Part shown: positions 817 through 9,812 of the stretch, one piece after another | How positions within the stretch are numbered: position 1 is the first letter of the stretch | Layout of the letters: the number at the start of each line of letters is the position of its first letter | From: Gemmatimonadota bacterium | GTDB lineage: Bacteria > Gemmatimonadota > Gemmatimonadetes > Longimicrobiales > Gaopeijiaceae | Assembly: GCA_040905325.1 (NCBI GenBank) | Contig: JBBDRS010000038.1 | Coordinates: forward strand, 68,801-132,800 | Reading direction: 5' to 3' | DNA: 64,000 bases | Translations under genes and position numbers: made by a program | Notes under the pieces: generated by a model | Database searches by the model: none | Told to the model about the DNA's origin: nothing | The model's input: only the letters and a program-made list of their open reading frames with translations

Positions 817-1015
817 TCAGCCCATCCCCCCGATCGCCGAGGGGCCATCCTCCGGAAAATGGGGAGGGGGTGGGGGCATCCCCGTCCGTGCTCGGGCGCG
901 ACTCTCCCGGGATACCGGCGCTGCGGGGCTTGCTGTGTACCTCCATGGAGGCTCGGTAATGCCGGGGGGGGGGTGGGGGGTGGAGGTCCTATCGGTGGGG
1001 CGGGTACGGACCGGG

Positions 1016-1054
1016 CACATGGGTAACAGGATGATCCGAGCACATGGGTAACAC
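1016..1054. repeat. left terminal repeat block of the IS (two direct copies of CACATGGGTAAC)
   Basis: Read directly: cacatgggtaacagg at 1016-1030 and cacatgggtaacac at 1041-1054. Confidence 0.7.
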
Positions 1055-2591: not shown

Positions 2592-3050
2592 TCACACCAC
2601 ATGGAGCCTCCCTGCCCGCTCGGCCTCCGTGCTCTCCATTCTCCCGCCCACCACCACCTCCTCCCGGTCGCGGATCCACGCGCGGAGTTCGCCTGCCGTG
2701 AACACGAGCGTGCCGTCCAACTTCCGGTGTGGGATCGGCTCGCCCTCGATCGCCCTGCCCGTCCTTCCGTAGACGAAGCTCTTCGGTCTCCCGAGGGCCT
2801 CCGCTACCTCGGCCACTCCGATCCGGGTCTCCGCCGGCACGAGCCACAGGCGCTCCCGCCATGTCCAGGGAGGTGACCCCTCCCGCTCCTCCTCTTGCGG
2901 CCCCCCTTCCCCGCCCTGGCCCTCCTCCTCGGCAATCGCCGTCAGGCACCGTGCCACCTCGGCAGCGTCAAGCGCGGTCCCCGGAGGCGCCGCCTGGCAC
3001 CAGGTGAGGAACTCGGCGAGGGTTGGGACGACCGGGGACGCCGTGTCCAT
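2592..3050 (-). CDS. excisionase/AlpA-like helix-turn-helix DNA-binding protein
   Basis: The C-terminal part RIGVAEVAEALGRPKSFVYGRT...IPHRKLDGTLVFTAGELRAWI matches the HTH_17/excisionase-type pattern. The ORF-track ORF runs to 3077; ATG at 3050 (MDTASP...) is taken as the start. Confidence 0.55.
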   Translation of the reverse strand: MDTASPVVPTLAEFLTWCQAAPPGTALDAAEVARCLTAIAEEEGQGGEGGPQEEEREGSPPWTWRERLWLVPAETRIGVAEVAEALGRPKSFVYGRTGRAIEGEPIPHRKLDGTLVFTAGELRAWIRDREEVVVGGRMESTEAERAGRLHVV

Positions 3051-3185
3051 TACGTGTCCACGACTCCGCAAGACCAATAACGGCGCGGCTTTCTGAAAGG
3101 CTGAGAATGCGTCATTATCTGCCCTACCCCCTCTCGGTCGTCCGACTCGATGCCGAGCGGGTCGGCGGGAGTCCGCGTCATCGGG

Positions 3186-3992
3186 CTACAGCTCCTCGGG
3201 GCGGACATGCCCACCGTCGCCGCCGGGGAAGGTCGGCTCGTCGCGCTCCTCCTGGACGAGCTCGCCGGGCCGGGGGGGCTTCCGATGCGTACCGCCGGTC
3301 TGCTCCGGGAGCGCCAAGCGCACCTTTTCCGCGTCCTCGCCGCCGTCCGCAATGATCGAGGCCAGGACCGCCTGCGGGTCCTCGCCGGCCGCAATTCGGG
3401 CCACCGCCACGTCCGGGAGCTTGGTGAAATCAACCTTTGCCACCACCGACCGAATGTCGACACGCCGGCTGTATCTGTTCGGGGCGTGCGACTCAGCCAA
3501 GCGCTCAAGGAGTCGGTCGGAATGTTCGCGCTCGGTGTAGATCCTCGGGAGAAAACCTTCACAATCGCGCTGCGGACTCGGGCCAGGCTCGCCCTCGGGG
3601 GTGAGAGGATGGTCCTCTCGGGCGCCGCCGCAGCGTTCGCACCAGCGAGGGTCGCGGGATGGTAGGCCGCTTTTCTTATCGAACCGGACACGCTCCACGC
3701 CGTGAACTCCACGCTCGATCATCGCGGCCTCGAGTACGTCGCCGTACATCTCCCGGGCCAGCTCAAGGGCCTCCTGGAACTCGGGGTCGAACCGCCACCC
3801 GGAGTTGTAGAGCGAATCGACGTGCAGCCCGCTCGCCCTTGCGGCCTCCCCCTTTTTTCCGCAAAGCGCGTAGGCTCTCAGGAAACCCCTCTTCCTTGGA
3901 TTCTCGATGTGCCGGAAGGCACTCTCCACCATCTCTTCCGCGCCTGCGGGCGTGGGGCTCCTGTCTGATCCGCTCACCCTCCCTCCTCCCAT
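3186..3992 (-). CDS. phage terminase small-subunit-like HTH protein
   Basis: The N-terminal pattern FLRAYALCGKKGEAARASGLHVDSLYNSGWRFDPEFQEALELAREMYGDVLEAAMIERGVHG followed by ...HSDRLLERLAESHAPNRYSRR resembles the common TerS layout (HTH, then E..RRA..G, then SD.LL..LLKA..P.KY). A Cys-containing insertion (CERCGG...) sits between them. The start could be ATG 3932. Confidence 0.45.
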   Translation of the reverse strand: MGGGRVSGSDRSPTPAGAEEMVESAFRHIENPRKRGFLRAYALCGKKGEAARASGLHVDSLYNSGWRFDPEFQEALELAREMYGDVLEAAMIERGVHGVERVRFDKKSGLPSRDPRWCERCGGAREDHPLTPEGEPGPSPQRDCEGFLPRIYTEREHSDRLLERLAESHAPNRYSRRVDIRSVVAKVDFTKLPDVAVARIAAGEDPQAVLASIIADGGEDAEKVRLALPEQTGGTHRKPPRPGELVQEERDEPTFPGGDGGHVRPEEL

Positions 3993-4099
3993 GCCTGGCG
4001 TTTGTTGTTACGGACACCGTCGTCCTGCGGCACGAGGGGCCACAGCCGGGCGGGCGCTGGGCGGGCGCAGCCAAGCATGAGGCGACCCTTCCGAACCCC

Positions 4100-4400
4100 G
4101 GATAGGGGTGCTTCCAATAGCACCCCCCCTATAGGGGGGTAGAGAGCACCCATAGCACCCGGCCTACTCTCCCAACGGTTTTCTATGGGTGTTTGTCGGA
4201 ATCCAGGACACCCATACTTTACCCCTCTCCCGCAACGGCTTTCTATGGGTGCCCGGTTGTTCACCCGGCCCACCCGGTCCACCCAGTCAGGGGCCTTTCC
4301 CTTGTCGCACAACGGATTTCTATGGGTGCGACCCCTAAACACCCGTACTTTTGCCTTGTGGCACAACGGGTTTCGAGGGATACGGGTGAAATGCGATACA
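4100..4400. repeat. iteron array / putative replication origin of the island
   Basis: Direct repeats of CAACGGnTTTCTATGGGTG occur at 4169-4191, 4227-4251 and 4304-4328, with a degenerate copy at 4358-4388. A companion motif ACACCCrTACTTT occurs at 4208-4221 and 4339-4352. Also present: an inverted half-site GCACCCATAG at 4146-4155, a hairpin GGGGTGC/GCACCCC at 4104-4125, and the 16-bp palindrome CCCCCCTATAGGGGGG at 4124-4139. Confidence 0.6.
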
Positions 4401-4425
4401 CCCGGGTACCCGGTCCCTGGCACTC

Positions 4426-5760
4426 TCATGATTCCCCCCCCGGCACGAGGAGCCCCCCGTCCAGTTCGTCGAGATCTCCCTCGCGCAGGCCCCGCTCGAT
4501 CACCGACCTCACAGTCTGGTCCCCGGCGCCCAGGACACCCAAGACCCCGCAGTACTTCTTGCGGATGGCGTAGCGGGTCAGTGAGCCCTTCTCCTTGAGG
4601 AGTTGCTGGATCCGGCCCACGATGACCACGTACTCCCGCTGCGCTTTTAGGTCCGCGTCCGCCGTGCTTGTTTTCTCGAGGGCAGCCGGCACGAGCACCC
4701 CGCCGGCCTCCCGTCGGAGCCACATCCCCGAGAAGGGCGGCGAGTAGTTCGATTTCGGGATCTCGAACCGGAGGTATCGGCTCGCCTCGTCCTCCTGGAG
4801 GCCGTAATCCTTCGCTTGGTCACGCCGGAGCCTCTGGAGGGTGGCGACCCAGCGCACGCCGTCGACGAGGGCGGTGGAGCCTCTGACGATTTCCTGACCG
4901 CCACCCTCCCGGATCCCCGTCTGTGAAATGTGGTGCAGGCCCAAGACCGTCGCGCCGGTTTCCCGTCGGATTACCTCGAGGGCTTCGACGAACCGAGTCG
5001 CATCTTCTTCCGTGTTTGCGCGGCCGCCACGCGAACGACTGATGGGATCGACGACGATGGCGCGTAGGTCGGGGATCTGCTGCGCGGTCGCGATCATGCG
5101 TCGGACGAGGTGCGTGTGGCGCACCTCCCCGTCGTGTCCCGCGCGGGTAAGCAGATTGTCCTCGGCGACCCGCGAAGCGATGTAGAGGCGTTCGGCCACC
5201 AGGGCACGCGGGAACGGCTCGCCGACTAGACGAGCCAGTCCCTCGTAGTGGGTGAGAAGCGTGCGCCCCCGTCGATGCAACTCGGCGTCGTCGTCCTCAG
5301 CAGCCAAATAAAGGAAGGAACCCGGCTCGCCCACCTGCATCCCGAGGAAGGGGATGCCTGCGGCAACGGAGAAGCCCAACTGAAGGGCCAAATTGGATTT
5401 CCCGGCACCGCCCATGGCAGCGAGGAGCCCGACCACGTCCAGTGGGAACACACCGTCGTCGCCGGCCCGTAGGAGCCAGCGGCGCGGCGGAGGATCCGAA
5501 GCCAAGTACCGCCCGAACCGGACTGATGCCGGGTCGAATAACGGTCTCGGCTCCGCGATCGCCTCCTGTACGAGCCGAGCCGCGTTAGGCACGCCGCGGT
5601 CCTCGAGCGCGCGCTGTGCGGCCGCGCCGAGTTCGGTCAGCATCGACCGCGCCGGTCGGTCTCCGTTGCGCGCGAGTTCCGCGAGGGCCTGAACCGCCTC
5701 GTCGGGGGGCCGCGTGCCAAAGCCCAACTCGTCCAGCGCCGCGCTGATCTCGTCTCTCAC
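4426..5760 (-). CDS. RecA-fold AAA_25/RepA-like replicative helicase with C-terminal winged-helix-like domain
   Basis: Walker A LLAAMGGAGKSNLALQL; Walker B-like LRAIVVDPISR. The LGLHHISQTG and STALVDGVRW motifs are typical of AAA_25 proteins of mobile elements. GTG start overlaps the Prim-Pol stop (GTGA). Confidence 0.75.
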   Translation of the reverse strand: MRDEISAALDELGFGTRPPDEAVQALAELARNGDRPARSMLTELGAAAQRALEDRGVPNAARLVQEAIAEPRPLFDPASVRFGRYLASDPPPRRWLLRAGDDGVFPLDVVGLLAAMGGAGKSNLALQLGFSVAAGIPFLGMQVGEPGSFLYLAAEDDDAELHRRGRTLLTHYEGLARLVGEPFPRALVAERLYIASRVAEDNLLTRAGHDGEVRHTHLVRRMIATAQQIPDLRAIVVDPISRSRGGRANTEEDATRFVEALEVIRRETGATVLGLHHISQTGIREGGGQEIVRGSTALVDGVRWVATLQRLRRDQAKDYGLQEDEASRYLRFEIPKSNYSPPFSGMWLRREAGGVLVPAALEKTSTADADLKAQREYVVIVGRIQQLLKEKGSLTRYAIRKKYCGVLGVLGAGDQTVRSVIERGLREGDLDELDGGLLVPGGES

Positions 5761-6758
5761 GATGCCTCCGCGAGGATGGCCCGCGCGCGCTTCGCGCGGG
5801 TCCGGGGGCCGATGTCCATCCCAAGCACACGGCGGGCGCTCCGTGCGGCCTCCCGAACGTCACCCCCGTGTTCGAGGATGGTCATGACCGAGAACGAATC
5901 GTGCGCGTGCCCGTCACCGAGAGGGCAAGAAGCGTGATGCGAGTAAGCACGACCGTCCAAGATCACAACACCGGGGTCACCGGTGGTCGAGCCAGGCGCC
6001 AGCCAGCGGTCACCCCGCTCCTGGTAGCCGTTCCGCGTGAGCACCGCACTGACGGGCACCCTCGCGTTCCAGGTATCGATGACCGATGGTCCGTCACCCC
6101 CACGCCGCGGCGTCGGGACCGAGGGTGCTTGTGCGGGCTCGGGCTCCGGGGGCGCCCATGGGCAGGCGCCCTCCATCGCGGGGCGGAGCGAGTCCCAGTC
6201 GACCCACAGCCGCAGCAGCGAGTCCGGAAGGAGGGGAATCTCTGCCCGGCTCGCCGGGGGGTCGCCGCCGAAACGGTACGGCATCCGTGTGCCTGGGTGC
6301 ATCGAGTAGGGGAGCACATCTTGGACGGCTCCAGCGCGGAGCTCGAAGATTGTCTCCAGCGCGCCAGATCCGTCCCGGGCCGGCCACCTAAGGGCGCGGT
6401 GGGAGAGGTCATGACCCTCGGGTACGCGACAGAAAAGCTTGGCCGGCTTCGCCGGATTGCCGACGACGGCCAGGCCGTCCCGCTCGAGGAGTGCCGTGTA
6501 ATCGATCCCTACCGAAGCGAAGGCGAGAACGATAAGGTCCGCGTCGGTGTCTCCGTCCACAGCACCCGTGCCGCTGAGTCCGTGGACGGCGCCAAGTCCA
6601 TAGCCCTGCCGCACGTATTCGTCCAAATCCTTGCCGGAGATCCGCCGGTGCTGCCACCCGCGAAGAAAGGCCCCCTTCCCTCGAACGGGCGTCAGAAAGA
6701 GGCCCAGCTCCGAGAAGTATCGACGAGCCCCGAGCAGGCGAGCGACGCGCCCCCTCAT
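5757..6758 (-). CDS. bifunctional DNA primase/polymerase (Prim-Pol) domain protein
   Basis: The N-terminal LFLTPVRGKGAFLRGWQHR...GLGAVHGLSG..VDGDTD pattern fits the Prim-Pol N-terminal domain. It lies directly upstream of, and is translationally coupled to, the helicase. Confidence 0.65.
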   Translation of the reverse strand: MRGRVARLLGARRYFSELGLFLTPVRGKGAFLRGWQHRRISGKDLDEYVRQGYGLGAVHGLSGTGAVDGDTDADLIVLAFASVGIDYTALLERDGLAVVGNPAKPAKLFCRVPEGHDLSHRALRWPARDGSGALETIFELRAGAVQDVLPYSMHPGTRMPYRFGGDPPASRAEIPLLPDSLLRLWVDWDSLRPAMEGACPWAPPEPEPAQAPSVPTPRRGGDGPSVIDTWNARVPVSAVLTRNGYQERGDRWLAPGSTTGDPGVVILDGRAYSHHASCPLGDGHAHDSFSVMTILEHGGDVREAARSARRVLGMDIGPRTRAKRARAILAEAS

Positions 6759-6829: not shown

Positions 6830-7195
6830 CTACAGATCCTCCCCGAGGTCTACGACCGGCCGGACCTCTCGCAGGGTGTATCCGGGATCGGCATTACTGC
6901 CGAGGCAGTGTGCTACCCGATGCCCATCCCCGTACCCAACCGGCGACCCCGGAGGGCCGGCGCCGTGCGTGTGCGGGCGGCCGCAGTAGGGGCAGGAGTC
7001 GATGCGTAGATAATCGTACTCTGGTCTCGGGATCCGGCGGGCCTCCACCACCGGAGGCCGGTCGAGCTCTGCGGCGATGTCGCGGAGGCGGGTCGCTGCG
7101 GTCGTGCGGGAAGTGACGCGCACCACGAACGGCTCGGCCAGGATCCCGGGGATCTCGACGCGGAGGGTTGTCGGTTCGGTCGTCGGCCGGATCAT
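6830..7195 (-). CDS. hypothetical protein with Cys/His cluster (CPYCGRPHTHG...HRVAHC)
   Basis: ORF-track ORF. Its ATG overlaps the RHH stop (ATGA). A possible zinc-ribbon-like motif is present but no family is recognised. Confidence 0.45.
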   Translation of the reverse strand: MIRPTTEPTTLRVEIPGILAEPFVVRVTSRTTAATRLRDIAAELDRPPVVEARRIPRPEYDYLRIDSCPYCGRPHTHGAGPPGSPVGYGDGHRVAHCLGSNADPGYTLREVRPVVDLGEDL

Positions 7196-7395
7196 CGGAC
7201 CCCGGCCGGGAGATCGAGAGTCTCGTCCGCGACCAGCTCCGCCCGGGCCGCGCGGAGGGCCGCCCCTCGGACATACGTCGACAGAGGAACCCCTCTCTGG
7301 CCCGCAGCCGCCTCGAGTAGGCGACGTTCATCGCTCCCCAAGCGGAGGGTCCACACCGGACGAGGCTCCCGATTCGTGATTTCTCTCCGTCCCAT
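7192..7395 (-). CDS. ribbon-helix-helix (CopG/MobC-like) small DNA-binding protein
   Basis: WTLRLGSDERRLLEAAAGQRGVPLSTYVRGAAL fits a beta-strand/helix/helix RHH pattern. ATG at 7395 is preceded by AAGGAG; the ORF track starts at TTG 7401. Confidence 0.5.
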   Translation of the reverse strand: MGRREITNREPRPVWTLRLGSDERRLLEAAAGQRGVPLSTYVRGAALRAARAELVADETLDLPAGVR

Positions 7396-7503
7396 TTGCA
7401 ACTCCTTGCGTATTGCGTTTCTCAGCGCACCGCGCTATGATGAGAACGTAAGGCACAGCGCATTGCCGCGCAAGTCATCGTCTATTGCACTTTCGGAGAA
7501 GCC
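7396..7503. promoter_or_regulatory. divergent control region between RHH and XRE genes with TTGC/ATTGC repeats
   Basis: GC is locally lower. TTGC occurs six times (7396-7417, 7462-7466, 7484-7488), including the palindrome TTGCcgcGCAA at 7463-7473. TATGAT at 7435-7440 is a possible -10. Confidence 0.35.
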
Positions 7504-8334
7504 ATGCACACCGACACGGCGGGCTACGGAGCCCGGATCGCCCGAGCGCTCGAACGGGGTCCGCGGCCGATGAGCGCCCGAGAGCTCGCCCGCAGGGTGG
7601 GGGAGCTCTACCCGGATCTCAGGGGCACGAGCTACGGCGGGATTCGCCAGTACGCAGAGGGGAATATCCAGAGACCGCGCGTTGATCTCCTGCGGGCAAT
7701 CGCGGACGTGCTCGGCGTGCGCGCCGAGTGGTTGGCGTTCGACGAGGACGAGATGACCGAGGACCTGCAGCGCGCACGGGAGGCGCGCGAGGCGGGCGAG
7801 GAGCCGGATCCCGGTGCAACCTGGGGCGCTGAGGACTTCCTGCGCGTGGTCGGCGGGGAGCTCGGGGACGGCCGCCTCCTCGTTGACCACCCAGCCGAAC
7901 CCTTCCTCCTGGAGGGGTGGGCGCGCCTCCTGGATGCCGGGATCTCACCCGCGCATTCAGAGGAGGCCACCCCGGAGACCACAAGGGAGGAGGGCCTACA
8001 GGGGATCGGCCGGGCGGCACTTGGCCAGCCTCGCCCGATCGAGTTCGACCCCATCGTGATTCCACCGGATGTGCCGAGGGATTCTCGGCACCATTACGCG
8101 ATCGCCGTGCATGTCGGACAGATGCTACGCGTGGGGTTGGCCGGGATCTTCCCCTACGCGCGAGACCTCGGCGAGGCGGAGTTGACCGACTACGTGGCGT
8201 CGACGCTCCAGGCCCTCCACCGCGTTGCTGACGCCGCGCGTCGCCGAGCACCAGAGTTCGAGTTCCCCACGCCCTCCCCGGACGAGCCGGCCGAGGGCGA
8301 TTCCCCTTCCACGGAGCACGATCATGGCACGTAA
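7504..8334 (+). CDS. XRE-family HTH transcriptional regulator (repressor-like) with uncharacterised C-terminal domain
   Basis: N-terminal YGARIARALERGPRPMSARELARRVG...GIRQYAEGNIQRPRVDLLRAIADVLGV matches the HTH_3/Cro-CI pattern. About 190 further residues have no recognisable motif. Confidence 0.7.
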   Translation: MHTDTAGYGARIARALERGPRPMSARELARRVGELYPDLRGTSYGGIRQYAEGNIQRPRVDLLRAIADVLGVRAEWLAFDEDEMTEDLQRAREAREAGEEPDPGATWGAEDFLRVVGGELGDGRLLVDHPAEPFLLEGWARLLDAGISPAHSEEATPETTREEGLQGIGRAALGQPRPIEFDPIVIPPDVPRDSRHHYAIAVHVGQMLRVGLAGIFPYARDLGEAELTDYVASTLQALHRVADAARRRAPEFEFPTPSPDEPAEGDSPSTEHDHGT

Positions 8335-9502
8335 CCACCCAGGATCTATCGACCGGCACGGCGACCGCTGGAGAATCCGCCTGTCCGTCGCCGGCCAGCG
8401 CCACACCTTCTACATGGAGGGGGACACCGACAAGCACGATGTGCAACAGTATGCCCGCGAGAAGGACACGGAGCTCCGTGGTCGGGCCGGTCGAGGTCTG
8501 CCCAACACCCGGTCGGCCTTCTCCGAACTCCTGCAACGCTACAAGGCCGCTGGGGTGCCCGGAGCCAAGAAGAAGGGCAACATCGCCAAGCGGACCCGGA
8601 GGAGCTACTCCACGTCCCTGAAGGCGTTCGAAGCCTTCTTCGTGCGAGAGAGCGGGGACCCCCAGGTGCGCGAGGTGAACGAAGGACACGTGAACCTCTT
8701 CCTCGACTGGCGCGAGCACCGTTCACCCACGGGGCAGCGGCGGAAGAAGGCGCTATCTGCCCGATCCATCCAGAAGGAGCGGGTCGCCCTCCATGTCCTC
8801 TTCGAGTATGCCCGCCGGATCGGGCTCGTGGACACAAACCCCGTGACCGACAAAACGAAGGCCCCGGAGGGGGACCAGCGGGAGCCGGTGATCCTGACCA
8901 CGGATCAGTACGAAGCACTACTCCGGGCGTGCGAGGGGCGGGACATGCTCCGGCTCTACACCCTCGTGCTGGGGGAAACGGGCGTCCGGTGCGACTCGGA
9001 AGCCCTCTGGCTCCGGTGGTCCGACGTGGACCTCGAGCGCGGCTTCTTGACCATTGAGAGCGCCAGGTCAAAGGGGCAGCGCACCAAGAGCGGGAAGAGC
9101 CGGAAGGTCCCCATGACGCGCCGTCTGCGGGAGGCGATCCGGGAGCACATGGCGACGTACCGTTTCAGGACGTACCGAGACGAGCGCACCCGGTGGGTGT
9201 TCCACCACGAACTCGACCGACGCCACGCGAAGGCGGGGGCACGGCTTGGGAGTCTCAGGCGGGCGTTCTACGCGGCGGCGAAGCGGGCAGGGCTCCCCGC
9301 CGATCTACGCCAGCACGATCTCCGGCACCGGCGGGTCACCGAATGGCTCCGCGACGGGCACCCCGCCCACAAGGTCCGGAAGGCGATGGGCCACTCGGAT
9401 CTGCGGACCACCCTGGCCTACGAGCACATGGTGGAGGACGATCTCTTGTCCTTGGTCCAGGAATCCACCGAGGACGAACGTCGGGCGATTGCCCGAGGGT
9501 AG
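8324..9502 (+). CDS. tyrosine-type site-specific recombinase (phage integrase family)
   Basis: SAM-like N-terminal domain, then catalytic residues in ...GVRCDSEAL..., HDLRHRRVTEWL, and GHSDLRTTLAYEH (R..HxxR..Y). ATG 8324 (MARNHPGSIDRHGDRWRIR) overlaps the XRE stop by 11 nt. Confidence 0.9.
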   Translation: MARNHPGSIDRHGDRWRIRLSVAGQRHTFYMEGDTDKHDVQQYAREKDTELRGRAGRGLPNTRSAFSELLQRYKAAGVPGAKKKGNIAKRTRRSYSTSLKAFEAFFVRESGDPQVREVNEGHVNLFLDWREHRSPTGQRRKKALSARSIQKERVALHVLFEYARRIGLVDTNPVTDKTKAPEGDQREPVILTTDQYEALLRACEGRDMLRLYTLVLGETGVRCDSEALWLRWSDVDLERGFLTIESARSKGQRTKSGKSRKVPMTRRLREAIREHMATYRFRTYRDERTRWVFHHELDRRHAKAGARLGSLRRAFYAAAKRAGLPADLRQHDLRHRRVTEWLRDGHPAHKVRKAMGHSDLRTTLAYEHMVEDDLLSLVQESTEDERRAIARG

Positions 9503-9560: not shown

Positions 9561-9610
9561 TGTGTCCACGGCGTGTCCACGAGCAGTGTGGAAAACTCCG
9601 TAAGTCCAAG

Positions 9611-9681
9611 AGGCGCCGCCCGGATTCGAACCGGGGATGAAGGATTTGCAGTCCTCTGCCTTACCACTTGGCCACGGCGCC
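9611..9681 (-). tRNA. tRNA-Cys (anticodon GCA)
   Basis: Hand-folded cloverleaf: acceptor GGCGCCG/CGGCGCC, anticodon loop CUGCAAA, T-arm CCCGG-TTCGAAT-CCGGG, discriminator U. CCA is not encoded. Confidence 0.9.
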
Positions 9682-9739
9682 GAAATACGATGGGGAGGCC
9701 CCGCGCGGGGTCCGCGACGAGCCTCCCCTTCGATGGAAG

Positions 9740-9812
<73 letters not shown>

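What the first reader, a model, noticed from the sequence alone, without database searches (positions are those of the whole stretch)
4100..4400. Iteron array with a TATA-centred palindrome directly downstream of the helicase gene: putative island origin of replication
The 433-bp non-coding gap holds three near-perfect and one degenerate direct copy of CAACGGnTTTCTATGGGTG, with CAACGG starts at 4173, 4233, 4310 and 4364 (spacings 60, 77, 54 bp). Three of the copies are followed 12-18 nt later by ACACCCrTAC(TTT) (4208, 4339, ~4396). Upstream lie an inverted half-site GCACCCATAG (4146-4155), a GGGGTGC/GCACCCC hairpin (4104-4125) and the 16-bp perfect palindrome CCCCCCTATAGGGGGG (4124-4139). That palindrome is the only AT-containing core in a very GC-rich stretch and could be an unwinding nucleus. 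In SaPIs the ori, built of iterons flanking an AT-rich spacer, lies immediately 3' of rep, exactly as here. The helicase C-terminus (…GSLTRYAIRKKY…TVRSVIERGLREG) looks like a DNA-binding winged helix that could read these repeats.
Basis: seen in the sequence. Interest (0 to 1): 0.66.

Follow-up and report, generated by a model that had tools for sequence, protein, structure and literature searches.

The report
Replication origin of a Gemmatimonadota island
The repeat-filled gap after the helicase gene is most likely the replication origin of a small integrated mobile element: it holds 14 copies of a short DNA word whose sequence changes from island to island together with the DNA-reading tail of the neighbouring helicase.

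Summary
The 19-mer is a composite: an island-specific word (core GGGTG/CACCC, 14 copies in 336 bp against 1.5 expected) joined to an element that is conserved across the family.

Nineteen related loci from Gemmatimonadota and Proteobacteria carry similar arrays right after the helicase stop codon. Each has many copies of a word in both orientations, and 17 of the 19 also have a CCCCCTAnnGGGGG-type palindrome followed by an inverted word pair. The word differs between islands and tracks the helicase's C-terminal winged helix, not its ATPase core (nearest-neighbour agreement 12/16 against 5/16; permutation p = 2e-4). Words I predicted from the recognition helix matched in five of five new loci.

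The ATPase core matches the RSF1010 RepA ring helicase. The downstream gene varies, and the window's terS-like gene has no homolog in the relatives, so a packaging-site reading is unlikely.

Best reading: the origin of a PICI-like island, read by a self-loading RepA-type helicase with its own origin-binding domain. It works like SaPI and P4 origins but is built on a different helicase superfamily and has a GC-clamped palindrome where they have an AT-rich spacer. Binding and replication are untested.

The parts
4105..4414 (-). Whole repeat array, the putative origin. It begins 12 bp after the helicase stop codon when read on the minus strand.
   Evidence: 14 CACCC/GGGTG words against 1.48 expected. 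Similar arrays follow the helicase stop in 19 related loci.
4124..4139 (.). Perfect 16-bp palindrome CCCCCCTATAGGGGGG, the conserved centre of the array.
   Evidence: Read directly. A CCCCCTAnnGGGGG-type palindrome (or CCCTACTACGTAGGG; CCCTACCTATCGGTAGGG in L166, seen by eye) occupies the same position in 18 of 20 arrays.
4105..4126 (.). Inverted word pair GGGGTGC (4105-4111) and GCACCCC (4120-4126) on the helicase-distal side of the palindrome.
   Evidence: An inverted word pair follows the palindrome in most related loci.
4146..4162 (-). Two tandem words 9 bp apart (GCACCCATA, GCACCCGG) on the helicase-proximal side of the palindrome.
   Evidence: Two tandem words sit in the same place in most related loci, e.g. 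L001, L004, L161, L162, L167.
4173..4191 (-). 19-mer copy 1: family-conserved element CAACGGTTTTC plus word TATGGGTG.
4208..4217 (-). Inverted word ACACCCATAC, paired with the word of 19-mer 1.
   Evidence: (I15).
4233..4251 (-). 19-mer copy 2.
4262..4286 (-). Three tandem words at 9-bp spacing (CACCCGG, CACCCGG, CACCCAG).
   Evidence: Same-orientation neighbouring words are mostly 7-10 bp apart across the family.
4310..4328 (-). 19-mer copy 3.
4339..4348 (-). Inverted word ACACCCGTAC.
4364..4388 (-). Degenerate 19-mer copy 4 (conserved element intact, word decayed), followed by the word TACGGGTG (4381-4388).
4398..4409 (-). Word ACACCCGGGTAC, the copy nearest the helicase stop.
4426..5760 (-). 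Helicase of 444 aa: RepA-like RecA-fold ATPase (Pfam AAA_25) with a C-terminal winged helix.
   Evidence: Pfam AAA_25, E = 1.3e-37. AF2 model with pLDDT 91.9. Best Foldseek match is RSF1010 RepA 1nlf_A, E = 1.3e-19, TM 0.86.
4441..4587 (-). Winged-helix domain (residues 392-440). The predicted recognition helix is residues 414-427 (4480-4521).
   Evidence: Secondary structure H-S-H-H-wing. Foldseek hits are almost all winged-helix domains, though weak. Residues 415, 422 and 396 best predict the word.
5757..6758 (-). Prim-Pol primase gene, overlapping the helicase start by 4 nt.
   Evidence: Pfam Prim-Pol, E = 1e-6; phrog_1156 DNA primase.
3186..3992 (-). terS-like gene downstream of the array. 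It is part of the island but not tied to the array.
   Evidence: phrog_4044 terminase small subunit, E = 4.9e-17. No homolog in any related locus.
2592..3077 (-). HTH_17-like gene (AlpA/excisionase type). In relatives it directly follows the array.
   Evidence: Weak Pfam HTH_17 match, below the gathering cut-off. Homologs sit right after the array in L004 and L163.
8225..9502 (+). Tyrosine integrase next to the 3' end of tRNA-Cys (9610-9681, minus strand). It marks the right end of the island.

Best explanation
Window 4105-4414 is the vegetative replication origin of a roughly 7-kb integrated element at tRNA-Cys. The element's gene order is PICI-like: int, xre-type regulator, RHH gene, Prim-Pol, helicase, array, terS-like gene, HTH_17 gene.

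The array is a set of binding sites for the winged helix at the C-terminus of the adjacent RepA-like helicase. That domain reads a 7-8 bp word, YRYGGGTG with core GGGTG. There are 14 copies in both orientations, often 9 bp apart. Four of them are each joined to a family-conserved element (GAAAnCCGTTG on the helicase-sense strand) that may be a bending-protein site.

Proposed steps after excision, all inferred:
1. Helicase protomers dock on the words through their winged helices.
2. They assemble on both sides of the conserved palindrome CCCCCCTATAGGGGGG.
3. The duplex opens at or beside the palindrome and the short T-rich stretch next to it.
4. The ring helicase loads without a separate loader or initiator.
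5. The co-translated Prim-Pol makes the first primers and the host replisome takes over.

Shown here by computation: the anatomy, its conservation, the co-variation of word and winged helix, and the fold assignments. Inferred: binding, melting, loading, priming and autonomous replication.
For: 1. The repeats are real, far above chance and confined to the gap.

2. In 19 related loci the DNA right after the helicase stop codon carries an array of the same kind. Each has many copies of a short word in both orientations. Most have one to four copies of the AA-N4-TTG element. Seventeen have a palindrome (CCCCCTAnnGGGGG, CCCTACTACGTAGGG or CCCTACCTATCGGTAGGG) followed in most by an inverted word pair; none is seen in L085, and L101's match rests on only the C-terminal third of its helicase. 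Each word is concentrated in its own array and not in the rest of its locus.

3. The word differs between islands: CCGGGTG, GGGGCA, GTGGCA, CCGGCA, GCGGCA, ACTGCGC, GGGACAG and GGGACGG. It follows the winged helix rather than the ATPase core. The nearest neighbour by winged-helix sequence shares the word in 12 of 16 cases, against 5 of 16 by ATPase core. Same-word pairs have excess winged-helix identity after regressing on core identity (permutation p = 2e-4). L081 is 64% identical to the window helicase overall, yet carries the winged-helix signature and the word of loci that are only 37-43% identical.

4. I named words from the recognition helix before looking at the DNA. D-K predicted CCGGGTG, confirmed in L161, L166 and L167. 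D-H predicted GGGGCA, confirmed in L164 and L169.

5. The columns that best predict the word are residues 415, 422 and 396, all in the winged helix. Ten of the top 25 columns lie in the 13% of columns that make up that domain.

6. The ATPase core matches the hexameric replicative helicase RepA of RSF1010. A Prim-Pol gene overlaps the helicase start. In relatives the primase is often fused to the helicase.

7. The downstream gene varies: terS-like here, an HTH_17 gene in L004, L162 and L164, host genes in L167. So the array travels with the helicase.

8. The layout matches experimentally studied SaPI and PICI origins (PMC9371898, PMC6092414).
Against: - There is no experimental evidence of binding, melting or replication for any member of this family.
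- No AT-rich unwinding element of the usual size is present. The centre is a GC-clamped palindrome with a 4-bp TATA core.
- Its hairpin energy is not exceptional (z = -1.8).
- Most words lie on the helicase-proximal side of the palindrome rather than in two balanced sets.
- The co-variation is imperfect. L004 has a D-H helix but the word GTGGCA, and L165 has an E-R helix with that same word.
- The sequences are phylogenetically related, so the statistics are not fully independent.
- The left end of the island and its att repeat were not found. An IS481-type transposase abuts the left side, so the element may no longer be mobile.
- The array could also serve as a copy-control or autoregulatory site.
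Confidence: 0.75

Rival explanations
1. Packaging (pac/cos) site. The repeats would be binding sites for the terS-like protein encoded immediately downstream, as the R sites and IHF site of lambda cosB lie upstream of Nu1.
For: A terS-like gene (phrog_4044, E = 4.9e-17) starts at the edge of the gap. L005 appears by eye to carry a terS-type gene after its array (not scanned, and not homologous to the window's). In the more distant 'type B' relatives a Terminase_2-like terS gene converges on the same spacer.
Against: The window's terS-like protein has no homolog in any related locus, yet the array is kept. In L001, L002, L004, L162, L164 and L168 the next gene is an HTH-type gene, and in L167 it is a host gene. 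The word co-varies with the helicase winged helix.
Confidence: 0.05
2. Purely regulatory array. The words would be operators through which the helicase winged helix, or another island regulator, controls the downstream or upstream operon, or copy number by handcuffing, without acting as the start site of replication.
For: The array lies between co-oriented genes, and iteron-binding initiators commonly autoregulate. The co-variation shows binding specificity, not function.
Against: No sigma-70-like promoter or terminator is detected, though Gemmatimonadota promoters are poorly known. The fixed position at the 3' end of a replicative-type helicase gene, the conserved palindrome flanked by oppositely oriented words, and the match to tested SaPI/PICI origins all favour an origin (PMC9371898, PMC6092414). 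No other candidate origin or second word cluster exists in the island.
Confidence: 0.12
3. Generic dispersed repeat (REP-like element), or chance repeats in GC-rich non-coding DNA with no function specific to the island.
For: None beyond the general abundance of GC-rich words in such genomes.
Against: The 19-mer occurs only in the gap. The best 300-bp stretch elsewhere in the 64 kb has 3 extended words against 12 here. The same concentration holds in all 20 arrays. The architecture is conserved across phyla.
Confidence: 0.02
4. Recombination site. The repeats would be arm-type sites of the integrase or sites for the excisionase-like HTH_17 protein.
For: An HTH_17 gene often follows the array.
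Against: The array is about 4 kb from int and from the tRNA junction. It is kept in L167, which has no integrase nearby. The HTH_17 proteins of the window, L004 and L163 are 48-58% identical while their words are unrelated. The co-variation is with the helicase.
Confidence: 0.03

Closest known systems
SaPI / PICI replication origins with Rep or Pri-Rep (Staphylococcus aureus SaPI1, SaPI5, SaPIbov1; E. coli EcCICFT073)
   Same: The ori lies immediately 3' of the helicase-initiator gene. It has 6-12 short iterons read by a C-terminal winged helix, with iterons on both sides of a central region in opposite orientations. The primase is adjacent or fused, the gene order is pri-rep-ori-(terS), and specificity differs between islands (PMC9371898, PMC6092414).
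   Different: SaPI Reps are SF3/AAA+ helicases that move 3'-5'. This one has a RecA-fold ATPase closest to RSF1010 RepA, a 5'-3' helicase (PMC8965321). The centre here is a GC-clamped palindrome conserved across the family, not an AT-rich spacer. A second, family-conserved element accompanies the words. The hosts are Gemmatimonadota and Proteobacteria.
Satellite phage P4 ori and crr with the alpha protein
   Same: From my own knowledge, not checked here: short octamer iterons (TGTTCACC) in direct and inverted orientation are read by a C-terminal DNA-binding domain of a primase-helicase that initiates without host DnaA, DnaB or DnaC.
   Different: P4 alpha is an SF3 helicase fused to a primase. 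P4 also needs a second iteron cluster (crr) several kb away, and no second cluster exists here.
IncQ plasmid RSF1010 oriV with RepA, RepB' and RepC
   Same: The helicase core is the closest structural relative (1nlf_A, 26% identity, TM 0.86). In PLSDB, IncQ-type RepA genes make up nearly all listed matches, at about 32% identity over residues 121-363. The origin is also built of direct repeats plus palindromic elements.
   Different: In IncQ a separate protein, RepC, binds the iterons and opens the origin, and RepA has no DNA-recognition domain. Here a winged helix is fused to the helicase and no RepC is present. The primase is Prim-Pol, not RepB'.
Archaeal plasmid pRN1 (ORF904 primase-helicase)
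   Same: A Prim-Pol-type primase works with a helicase, and an essential cis region lies directly downstream of the replication gene (PMC4234260).
   Different: The helicase superfamily and the host domain differ, and no iteron array of this type is described there.

Membership tests
PICI/SaPI-type rep-ori module | Origin lies immediately 3' of the helicase-initiator gene | tested here: met
   The array starts 12 bp after the stop codon. The same position holds in 19 related loci.
PICI/SaPI-type rep-ori module | Multiple short iterons, with at least two on each side of the centre pointing in opposite directions | tested here: met
   14 words. Two tandem words lie on one side of the palindrome and an inverted pair on the other. 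The distribution is lopsided towards the helicase side.
PICI/SaPI-type rep-ori module | AT-rich central region as the melting site | tested here: not met
   The centre is CCCCCCTATAGGGGGG. Local GC is 50-60% against about 67% for the window, and there is no extended AT tract.
PICI/SaPI-type rep-ori module | Initiator is an SF3/AAA+ helicase | tested here: not met
   Pfam AAA_25. The best structural match is the RecA-fold helicase RepA of RSF1010, followed by DnaB.
PICI/SaPI-type rep-ori module | C-terminal winged helix that determines iteron specificity | tested here: met
   The winged helix is predicted at pLDDT 91. Word and winged helix co-vary, and five of five predictions held. Physical binding was not tested.
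PICI/SaPI-type rep-ori module | The rep-ori fragment replicates autonomously | not testable with these tools
   Needs a plasmid maintenance assay.
PICI (island as a whole) | Integrase, divergent regulator, pri-rep-ori, optional terS, size around 7-15 kb, specific att site, helper-phage induction | tested here: inconclusive
   The gene order fits and tRNA-Cys is adjacent. But no att repeat was found, the left flank holds an IS481-type transposase, and no helper phage is known.
IncQ (RSF1010-type) replicon | RepA-type hexameric helicase | tested here: met
   Foldseek 1nlf_A, E = 1.3e-19; tblastn to IncQ repA genes.
IncQ (RSF1010-type) replicon | Separate iteron-binding initiator RepC and primase RepB' | tested here: not met
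   The named island genes are int, xre-type, RHH, Prim-Pol, helicase, terS-like and HTH_17, plus an unassigned 121-aa ORF. The DNA-binding domain is fused to the helicase. None of 796 plasmid matches covers 80% of the query, and the listed ones end near residue 363.
P4-type ori/crr | Second cis-acting iteron cluster (crr) distant from ori | tested here: not met
   Only one cluster in the window. The next best 300-bp stretch has 3 words against 12.
REP-like dispersed repeats | Same repeat scattered through intergenic regions of the genome | tested here: not met
   Only 64 kb of this genome could be examined.
Phage pac/cos site | Repeats linked to, and co-varying with, a terminase small subunit gene | tested here: not met
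   The terS-like gene is absent from the related loci that keep the array.

The most novel reading that the evidence does not exclude
This would be an undescribed class of bacterial origin and initiator. An IncQ-RepA-type (SF4, RecA-fold, 5'-3') ring helicase has acquired its own origin-recognition winged helix, so it acts as initiator, loader and helicase in one protein. That solution was previously documented for SF3 enzymes (SaPI Rep, P4 alpha, viral E1 and large T antigen).

The family spans Gemmatimonadota and Proteobacteria. Its members share an origin core: a bending-site-like element, two tandem words, a C5-TA-G5 palindrome and an inverted word pair. A few recognition-helix positions (415, 422) appear to encode the word, which would allow origin specificity to be predicted and re-engineered.
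Probability: 0.45. Interest if true: 0.7.

Novelty: new variant of a known kind. Interest (0 to 1): 0.55.

Why it matters
Pfam AAA_25 proteins were described as having no known function as recently as 2022 (PMC8965321). This locus and its relatives give one branch of that family a concrete, testable role as the initiator-helicase of small integrated elements. They also provide a defined DNA target.

Ring helicases of the DnaB/RepA type normally need a separate initiator and loader. A natural fusion with an origin-binding domain would be a compact model for how such a ring is placed on double-stranded DNA.

The word and recognition-helix pairs from 20 arrays form a ready-made specificity table for experiments. 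In practice, the array marks the replication module of mobile elements in a poorly studied phylum. It also explains the spurious ORFs that gene callers place over these spacers.

Tried and rejected
- Island ends: I searched for a direct repeat of the tRNA-Cys 3' end by exact seeds and by local alignment. Nothing exceeded shuffled controls.
- Structured RNA: no Rfam match in the gap even at E = 1. Only the two tRNAs match in the whole window.
- Promoter or terminator: no consensus site in 3900-4500.
- Stable hairpin or cruciform: the DNA folding energies of the palindrome and of two conserved elements are only 1.3-1.8 sd below shuffles.
- P4-like second cluster (crr): none.
- IHF consensus WATCARNNNNTTR: absent from the 10 type-A arrays scanned, the window's included. 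The family-conserved element only resembles its AA-N4-TTG part, so calling it a bending-protein site is a guess.
- Helper phage carrying the same 19-mer: none in IMG/VR.
- Annotated plasmids or phages with the fused helicase and winged helix: none. Only IncQ-type RepA cores and a few weak phage hits.
- NCBIfam names for the four island proteins: none.
- Specific structural relative for the C-terminal domain: Foldseek gives only generic winged-helix hits at E = 0.02-0.1.
- Packaging-site and integrase-site readings were considered and rejected, as set out under the rival explanations.
Full report
**What is in the sequence**

The window is about 67% GC. The 100% protein match labels it as a Gemmatimonadota metagenome-assembled genome. 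Genes around the finding run on the minus strand. In order of decreasing coordinate they are:
- tRNA-Gly and tRNA-Cys (9739-9812 and 9610-9681)
- a tyrosine integrase (8225-9502, plus strand)
- an XRE-type regulator (7504-8334, plus strand)
- a small RHH-like gene (7192-7401) and a 121-aa ORF (6830-7195)
- a Prim-Pol primase (5757-6758)
- an AAA_25 helicase (4426-5760)
- the 433-bp gap
- a gene matching a phage small-terminase family (3186-3992, phrog_4044, E = 4.9e-17)
- an HTH_17-like gene (2592-3077, a weak match below Pfam's cut-off)
- an IS481-type transposase (1094-1918)

This is the gene order of a phage-inducible chromosomal island as described in PMC6092414: int, divergent regulator, pri, rep, ori, and sometimes terS.

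**Checking the observation**

- The 19-mer CAACGGNTTTCTATGGGTG matches exactly at 4173, 4233 and 4310. Chance expectation is 0.01, and there is no other match in 64 kb even with three mismatches allowed.
- A fourth, degenerate copy starts at 4364. The spacings are 60, 77 and 54 bp.
- The palindrome CCCCCCTATAGGGGGG is exact at 4124-4139.
- The inverted half-site, the flanking GGGGTGC/GCACCCC pair (one base off the stated coordinates) and the ACACCCRTAC copies are all there.
- One statement is overstated. The palindrome is not the only AT-containing spot. The whole gap is 50-60% GC, and its lowest stretch is 4170-4229.

**The real repeating unit**

The word CACCC/GGGTG occurs 14 times in 4090-4425 against 1.48 expected, and the richest stretch of the same length elsewhere has 6. 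The extended form CACCC[AG][TG] occurs 12 times against 0.32 expected. Seven of the window's ten CACCCRTA copies lie in the gap. No second cluster exists in the window.

On the helicase-sense strand the order is F R F R F F F R F R F F, then the palindrome, then F R, where F is GGGTG and R is CACCC. Tandem words are 9 bp apart. Each of the four R words between the helicase stop and the palindrome is directly followed by GAAAnCCGTTG.

**Related loci**

The helicase has 67 homologs at E <= 1e-20. Scans of genome and metagenome collections, plus look-ups of individual homologs, gave 33 loci with DNA beyond the helicase stop codon.

In 19 of them, from Gemmatimonadota and from Salinisphaera, Marinobacter, Magnetococcales and unnamed metagenomes, the 150-330 bp after the stop codon carry an array of the same kind as the window's:
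- a run of short words, often starting within a few bases of the stop;
- words in both orientations (forward copies only in L163);
- in most loci, one to four copies of an element of the form AA-N4-TTG-Y-G, spaced 54-77 bp apart where there are several;
- in 17 of the 19, a short T-rich stretch and a palindrome. The palindrome is CCCCCTAnnGGGGG, or CCCTACTACGTAGGG in L163 and L168, or CCCTACCTATCGGTAGGG in L166. None is seen in L085;
- in most, two tandem words before the palindrome and an inverted word pair after it.

L101's assignment rests on only the C-terminal third of its helicase. The window and L001 can be aligned base by base through this core.

The word itself differs between loci:
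- CCGGGTG: window, L001, L082, L101, L161, L166, L167
- GGGGCA: L002, L164, L169
- GTGGCA: L004, L165
- CCGGCA: L081, L003, L007, L162
- GCGGCA: L085
- ACTGCGC: L163
- GGGACAG: L168
- GGGACGG: L005

In all 20 arrays the word is concentrated in its own array and rare in the rest of the locus.

**Co-variation with the helicase C-terminus**

The AlphaFold model of the helicase is confident (pLDDT 91.9). After the ATPase it shows a long helix followed by a strand, helix 396-403, helix 414-427 and a two-stranded wing, which is a winged helix.

A separate model of residues 360-444 gives the same fold (pLDDT 91.0). Foldseek finds only weak matches for it (E = 0.02-0.1), but nearly all are winged-helix domains: Rpa2, cullin WHB, CAP, MntR/IdeR, SelB and Z-alpha.

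The start of helix 414-427 sorts with the word:
- D-[Q/K]-T-V-R goes with CCGGGTG.
- D-H goes with G(G/T)GGCA.
- [Q/H/E]-K goes with CCGGCA or GCGGCA.
- K-D, K-E and V-G go with the three unique words.

I used this to name the word before looking at the DNA in five further loci. All five were right: L161, L166 and L167 for D-K, and L164 and L169 for D-H. L169 is only 43% identical to the window helicase, and L166 only 51%.

The numbers agree.
- The nearest neighbour by winged-helix sequence shares the word in 12 of 16 cases, against 5 of 16 by ATPase core.
- Same-word pairs have 58% winged-helix identity against 44% for different-word pairs, at nearly equal core identity (55% and 52%).
- The excess survives regression on core identity (label permutation p = 2e-4).
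- The alignment columns most informative about the word relative to their own variability are residues 415, 422 and 396, all in the winged helix.
- Ten of the 25 most informative columns fall in that domain, which makes up 13% of the columns.

The clearest single case is L081. It is 64% identical to the window helicase overall, yet it has the winged-helix signature and the word of L003, L007 and L162, which are 37-43% identical.

There are two caveats. The sequences are related by descent, so these tests are not fully independent. The rule is also imperfect: L004 has D-H with GTGGCA, and L165 has E-R with the same word.

**What the helicase is**

Pfam places it in AAA_25 (E = 1.3e-37). The best structural match is the hexameric replicative helicase RepA of plasmid RSF1010 (1nlf_A, E = 1.3e-19, target TM-score 0.86, 26% identity), followed by DnaB helicases.

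Against PLSDB plasmids, nearly all listed matches are IncQ-type repA genes. They match at about 32% identity over residues 121-363 and stop short of the C-terminal domain. The phage collection has five weak hits.

A profile of the C-terminal domain finds only 149 cluster representatives among 1.84 billion proteins. Nearly all full-length hits (380-780 residues) carry it at the extreme C-terminus; shorter hits are probably fragments. This fits helicases alone or fused to a primase. In homologs the N-terminus carries PriCT, Toprim, zinc-finger primase, DnaB-N or Prim-Pol domains. In the window the Prim-Pol gene overlaps the helicase start by four bases.

**Rival readings**

*Packaging site.* This is worth weighing because a terS-like gene begins at the edge of the gap. 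However:
- That protein has no homolog in any related locus.
- In L004 and L163 the homolog of the window's HTH_17 gene follows the array directly.
- In L162, L164 and L168 the next gene is also an HTH_17 gene.
- In L167 the helicase and its array sit alone among host genes.

So the array travels with the helicase.

*Promoter, terminator or RNA.* No sigma-70-like promoter or intrinsic terminator is detected, and there is no Rfam family. A purely regulatory role for helicase binding cannot be excluded by computation. It would not explain the conserved palindrome flanked by oppositely oriented words, nor the match to tested origins.

*Integrase or excisionase sites.* These are unlikely. The array is about 4 kb from int, it is kept in L167 where no integrase is nearby, and it co-varies with the helicase.

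**Mechanism proposed**

The layout matches what is established for SaPI Rep proteins. A C-terminal winged helix reads 5-6 nt iterons. Six to twelve of them lie immediately downstream of rep, with at least two on each side of the centre pointing in opposite directions. The helicase loads itself without a separate loader (PMC9371898). Gram-negative PICIs have the same organisation, and their rep-ori segment drives plasmid replication (PMC6092414).

I therefore propose the following. After excision, helicase protomers dock on the words through their winged helices and assemble on both sides of the palindrome. They open the duplex there and load as rings. Prim-Pol then primes. All of these steps are inferred.

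**How it differs from the known systems**

- The motor belongs to a different superfamily. It is RecA-fold and RepA-like, and RSF1010 RepA is a 5'-3' helicase according to PMC8965321. SaPI Rep and P4 alpha are SF3-type 3'-5' helicases.
- In IncQ plasmids the iterons are bound by a separate protein, RepC. Here the binding domain is fused to the helicase.
- The centre is a GC-clamped palindrome conserved across phyla rather than an AT-rich tract. Its hairpin energy is unremarkable.
- A second conserved element accompanies the words. Its function is unknown.

**The second conserved element**

The pattern AA-N-Y-Y-N-TTG-B gives 20 sense-strand hits in 12 of 20 arrays against 0.64 expected. The pattern was derived from these same data, so that figure is inflated.

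In a more distant set of 13 loci ('type B') the same place holds matches to the IHF consensus WATCARNNNNTTR. Ten loci have at least one match, and eight have two in the same orientation, 56-57 bp apart (19 matches against 0.23 expected). A bending-protein site is therefore a reasonable guess for the type-A element. But the type-A arrays scanned contain no match to that consensus.

**Verdict**

It works like a SaPI, PICI or P4 origin. It is not a member of those families by helicase type or by an AT-rich centre. It is related to IncQ RepA only in the motor.

I found no description of this fused architecture or its origin in the searchable literature. AAA_25 was called functionally undescribed in 2022 (PMC8965321). 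I rate it a new variant of a known kind, of moderate interest. Binding and replication remain untested.

Noticed in passing
L006, L008, L009, L087-L092, L094-L096, L099 (first ~200 bp after the helicase stop): A second 'type B' spacer architecture in more distant helicase relatives (31-42% identity). Most have two same-orientation matches to the IHF consensus WATCARNNNNTTR 56-57 bp apart (19 matches against 0.23 expected). The second lies about 13 nt before a CCCTATATAGA-like box, followed by a GC hairpin. In at least 10 of these loci a convergent Terminase_2-like terS gene follows.
   Followed up: partly
window 4173-4183, 4233-4243, 4310-4320, 4364-4374, and the corresponding sites in 11 related loci: A family-conserved element (helicase-sense GAAAnCCGTTG, general form AA-N4-TTG-Y-G) directly follows an inverted word and is spaced 54-77 bp apart. 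It is conserved across islands whose words differ. Its partner (host bending protein, primase or other) is unknown. In some copies it forms a small inverted repeat, CyTTG-N5-CAArG.
   Followed up: partly
L161 7308-8087; L164 4536-4802; L166 2442-2702; L168 3487-3996: Public gene calls place ORFs of 86-259 aa across the repeat arrays. Given the word-array structure of the DNA, these are probably spurious.
   Followed up: no
L167 6001-7350: A helicase homolog with its word array and palindrome sits alone among host genes (OsmC, DUF420, an ECF sigma factor). There is no integrase or primase nearby. It is probably a decayed island remnant.
   Followed up: no
window 1011-1053 and 1094-2300: An IS481-type transposase ORF (274 aa, rve domain cut short) abuts the left side of the island. 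An 18-nt direct repeat (CCGGGCACATGGGTAACA, two copies 25 bp apart) lies just upstream of it. No att repeat of the tRNA-Cys end was found, so the island's left end may have been disrupted.
   Followed up: partly
window 3186-3992: The terS-like gene (phrog_4044) has no homolog in any of the related loci fetched. It looks like a cargo or module insertion between the array and the HTH_17 gene. In L004 and L163 the HTH_17 homolog follows the array directly.
   Followed up: partly
L162 5537-9818; L165 5760-7152: The same helicase-array module sits in larger elements that carry a prohead protease (Peptidase_S78) or a large terminase (Terminase_6N/6C). So the replicon is shared between minimal islands and capsid-encoding elements or prophages.
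   Followed up: no
window 6830-7195 and L082 2554-2766: The 121-aa ORF upstream of the Prim-Pol gene in the window has a homolog (54% identity over 71 aa) located downstream of the array in L082. This points to gene-order shuffling around the replication module.
   Followed up: no
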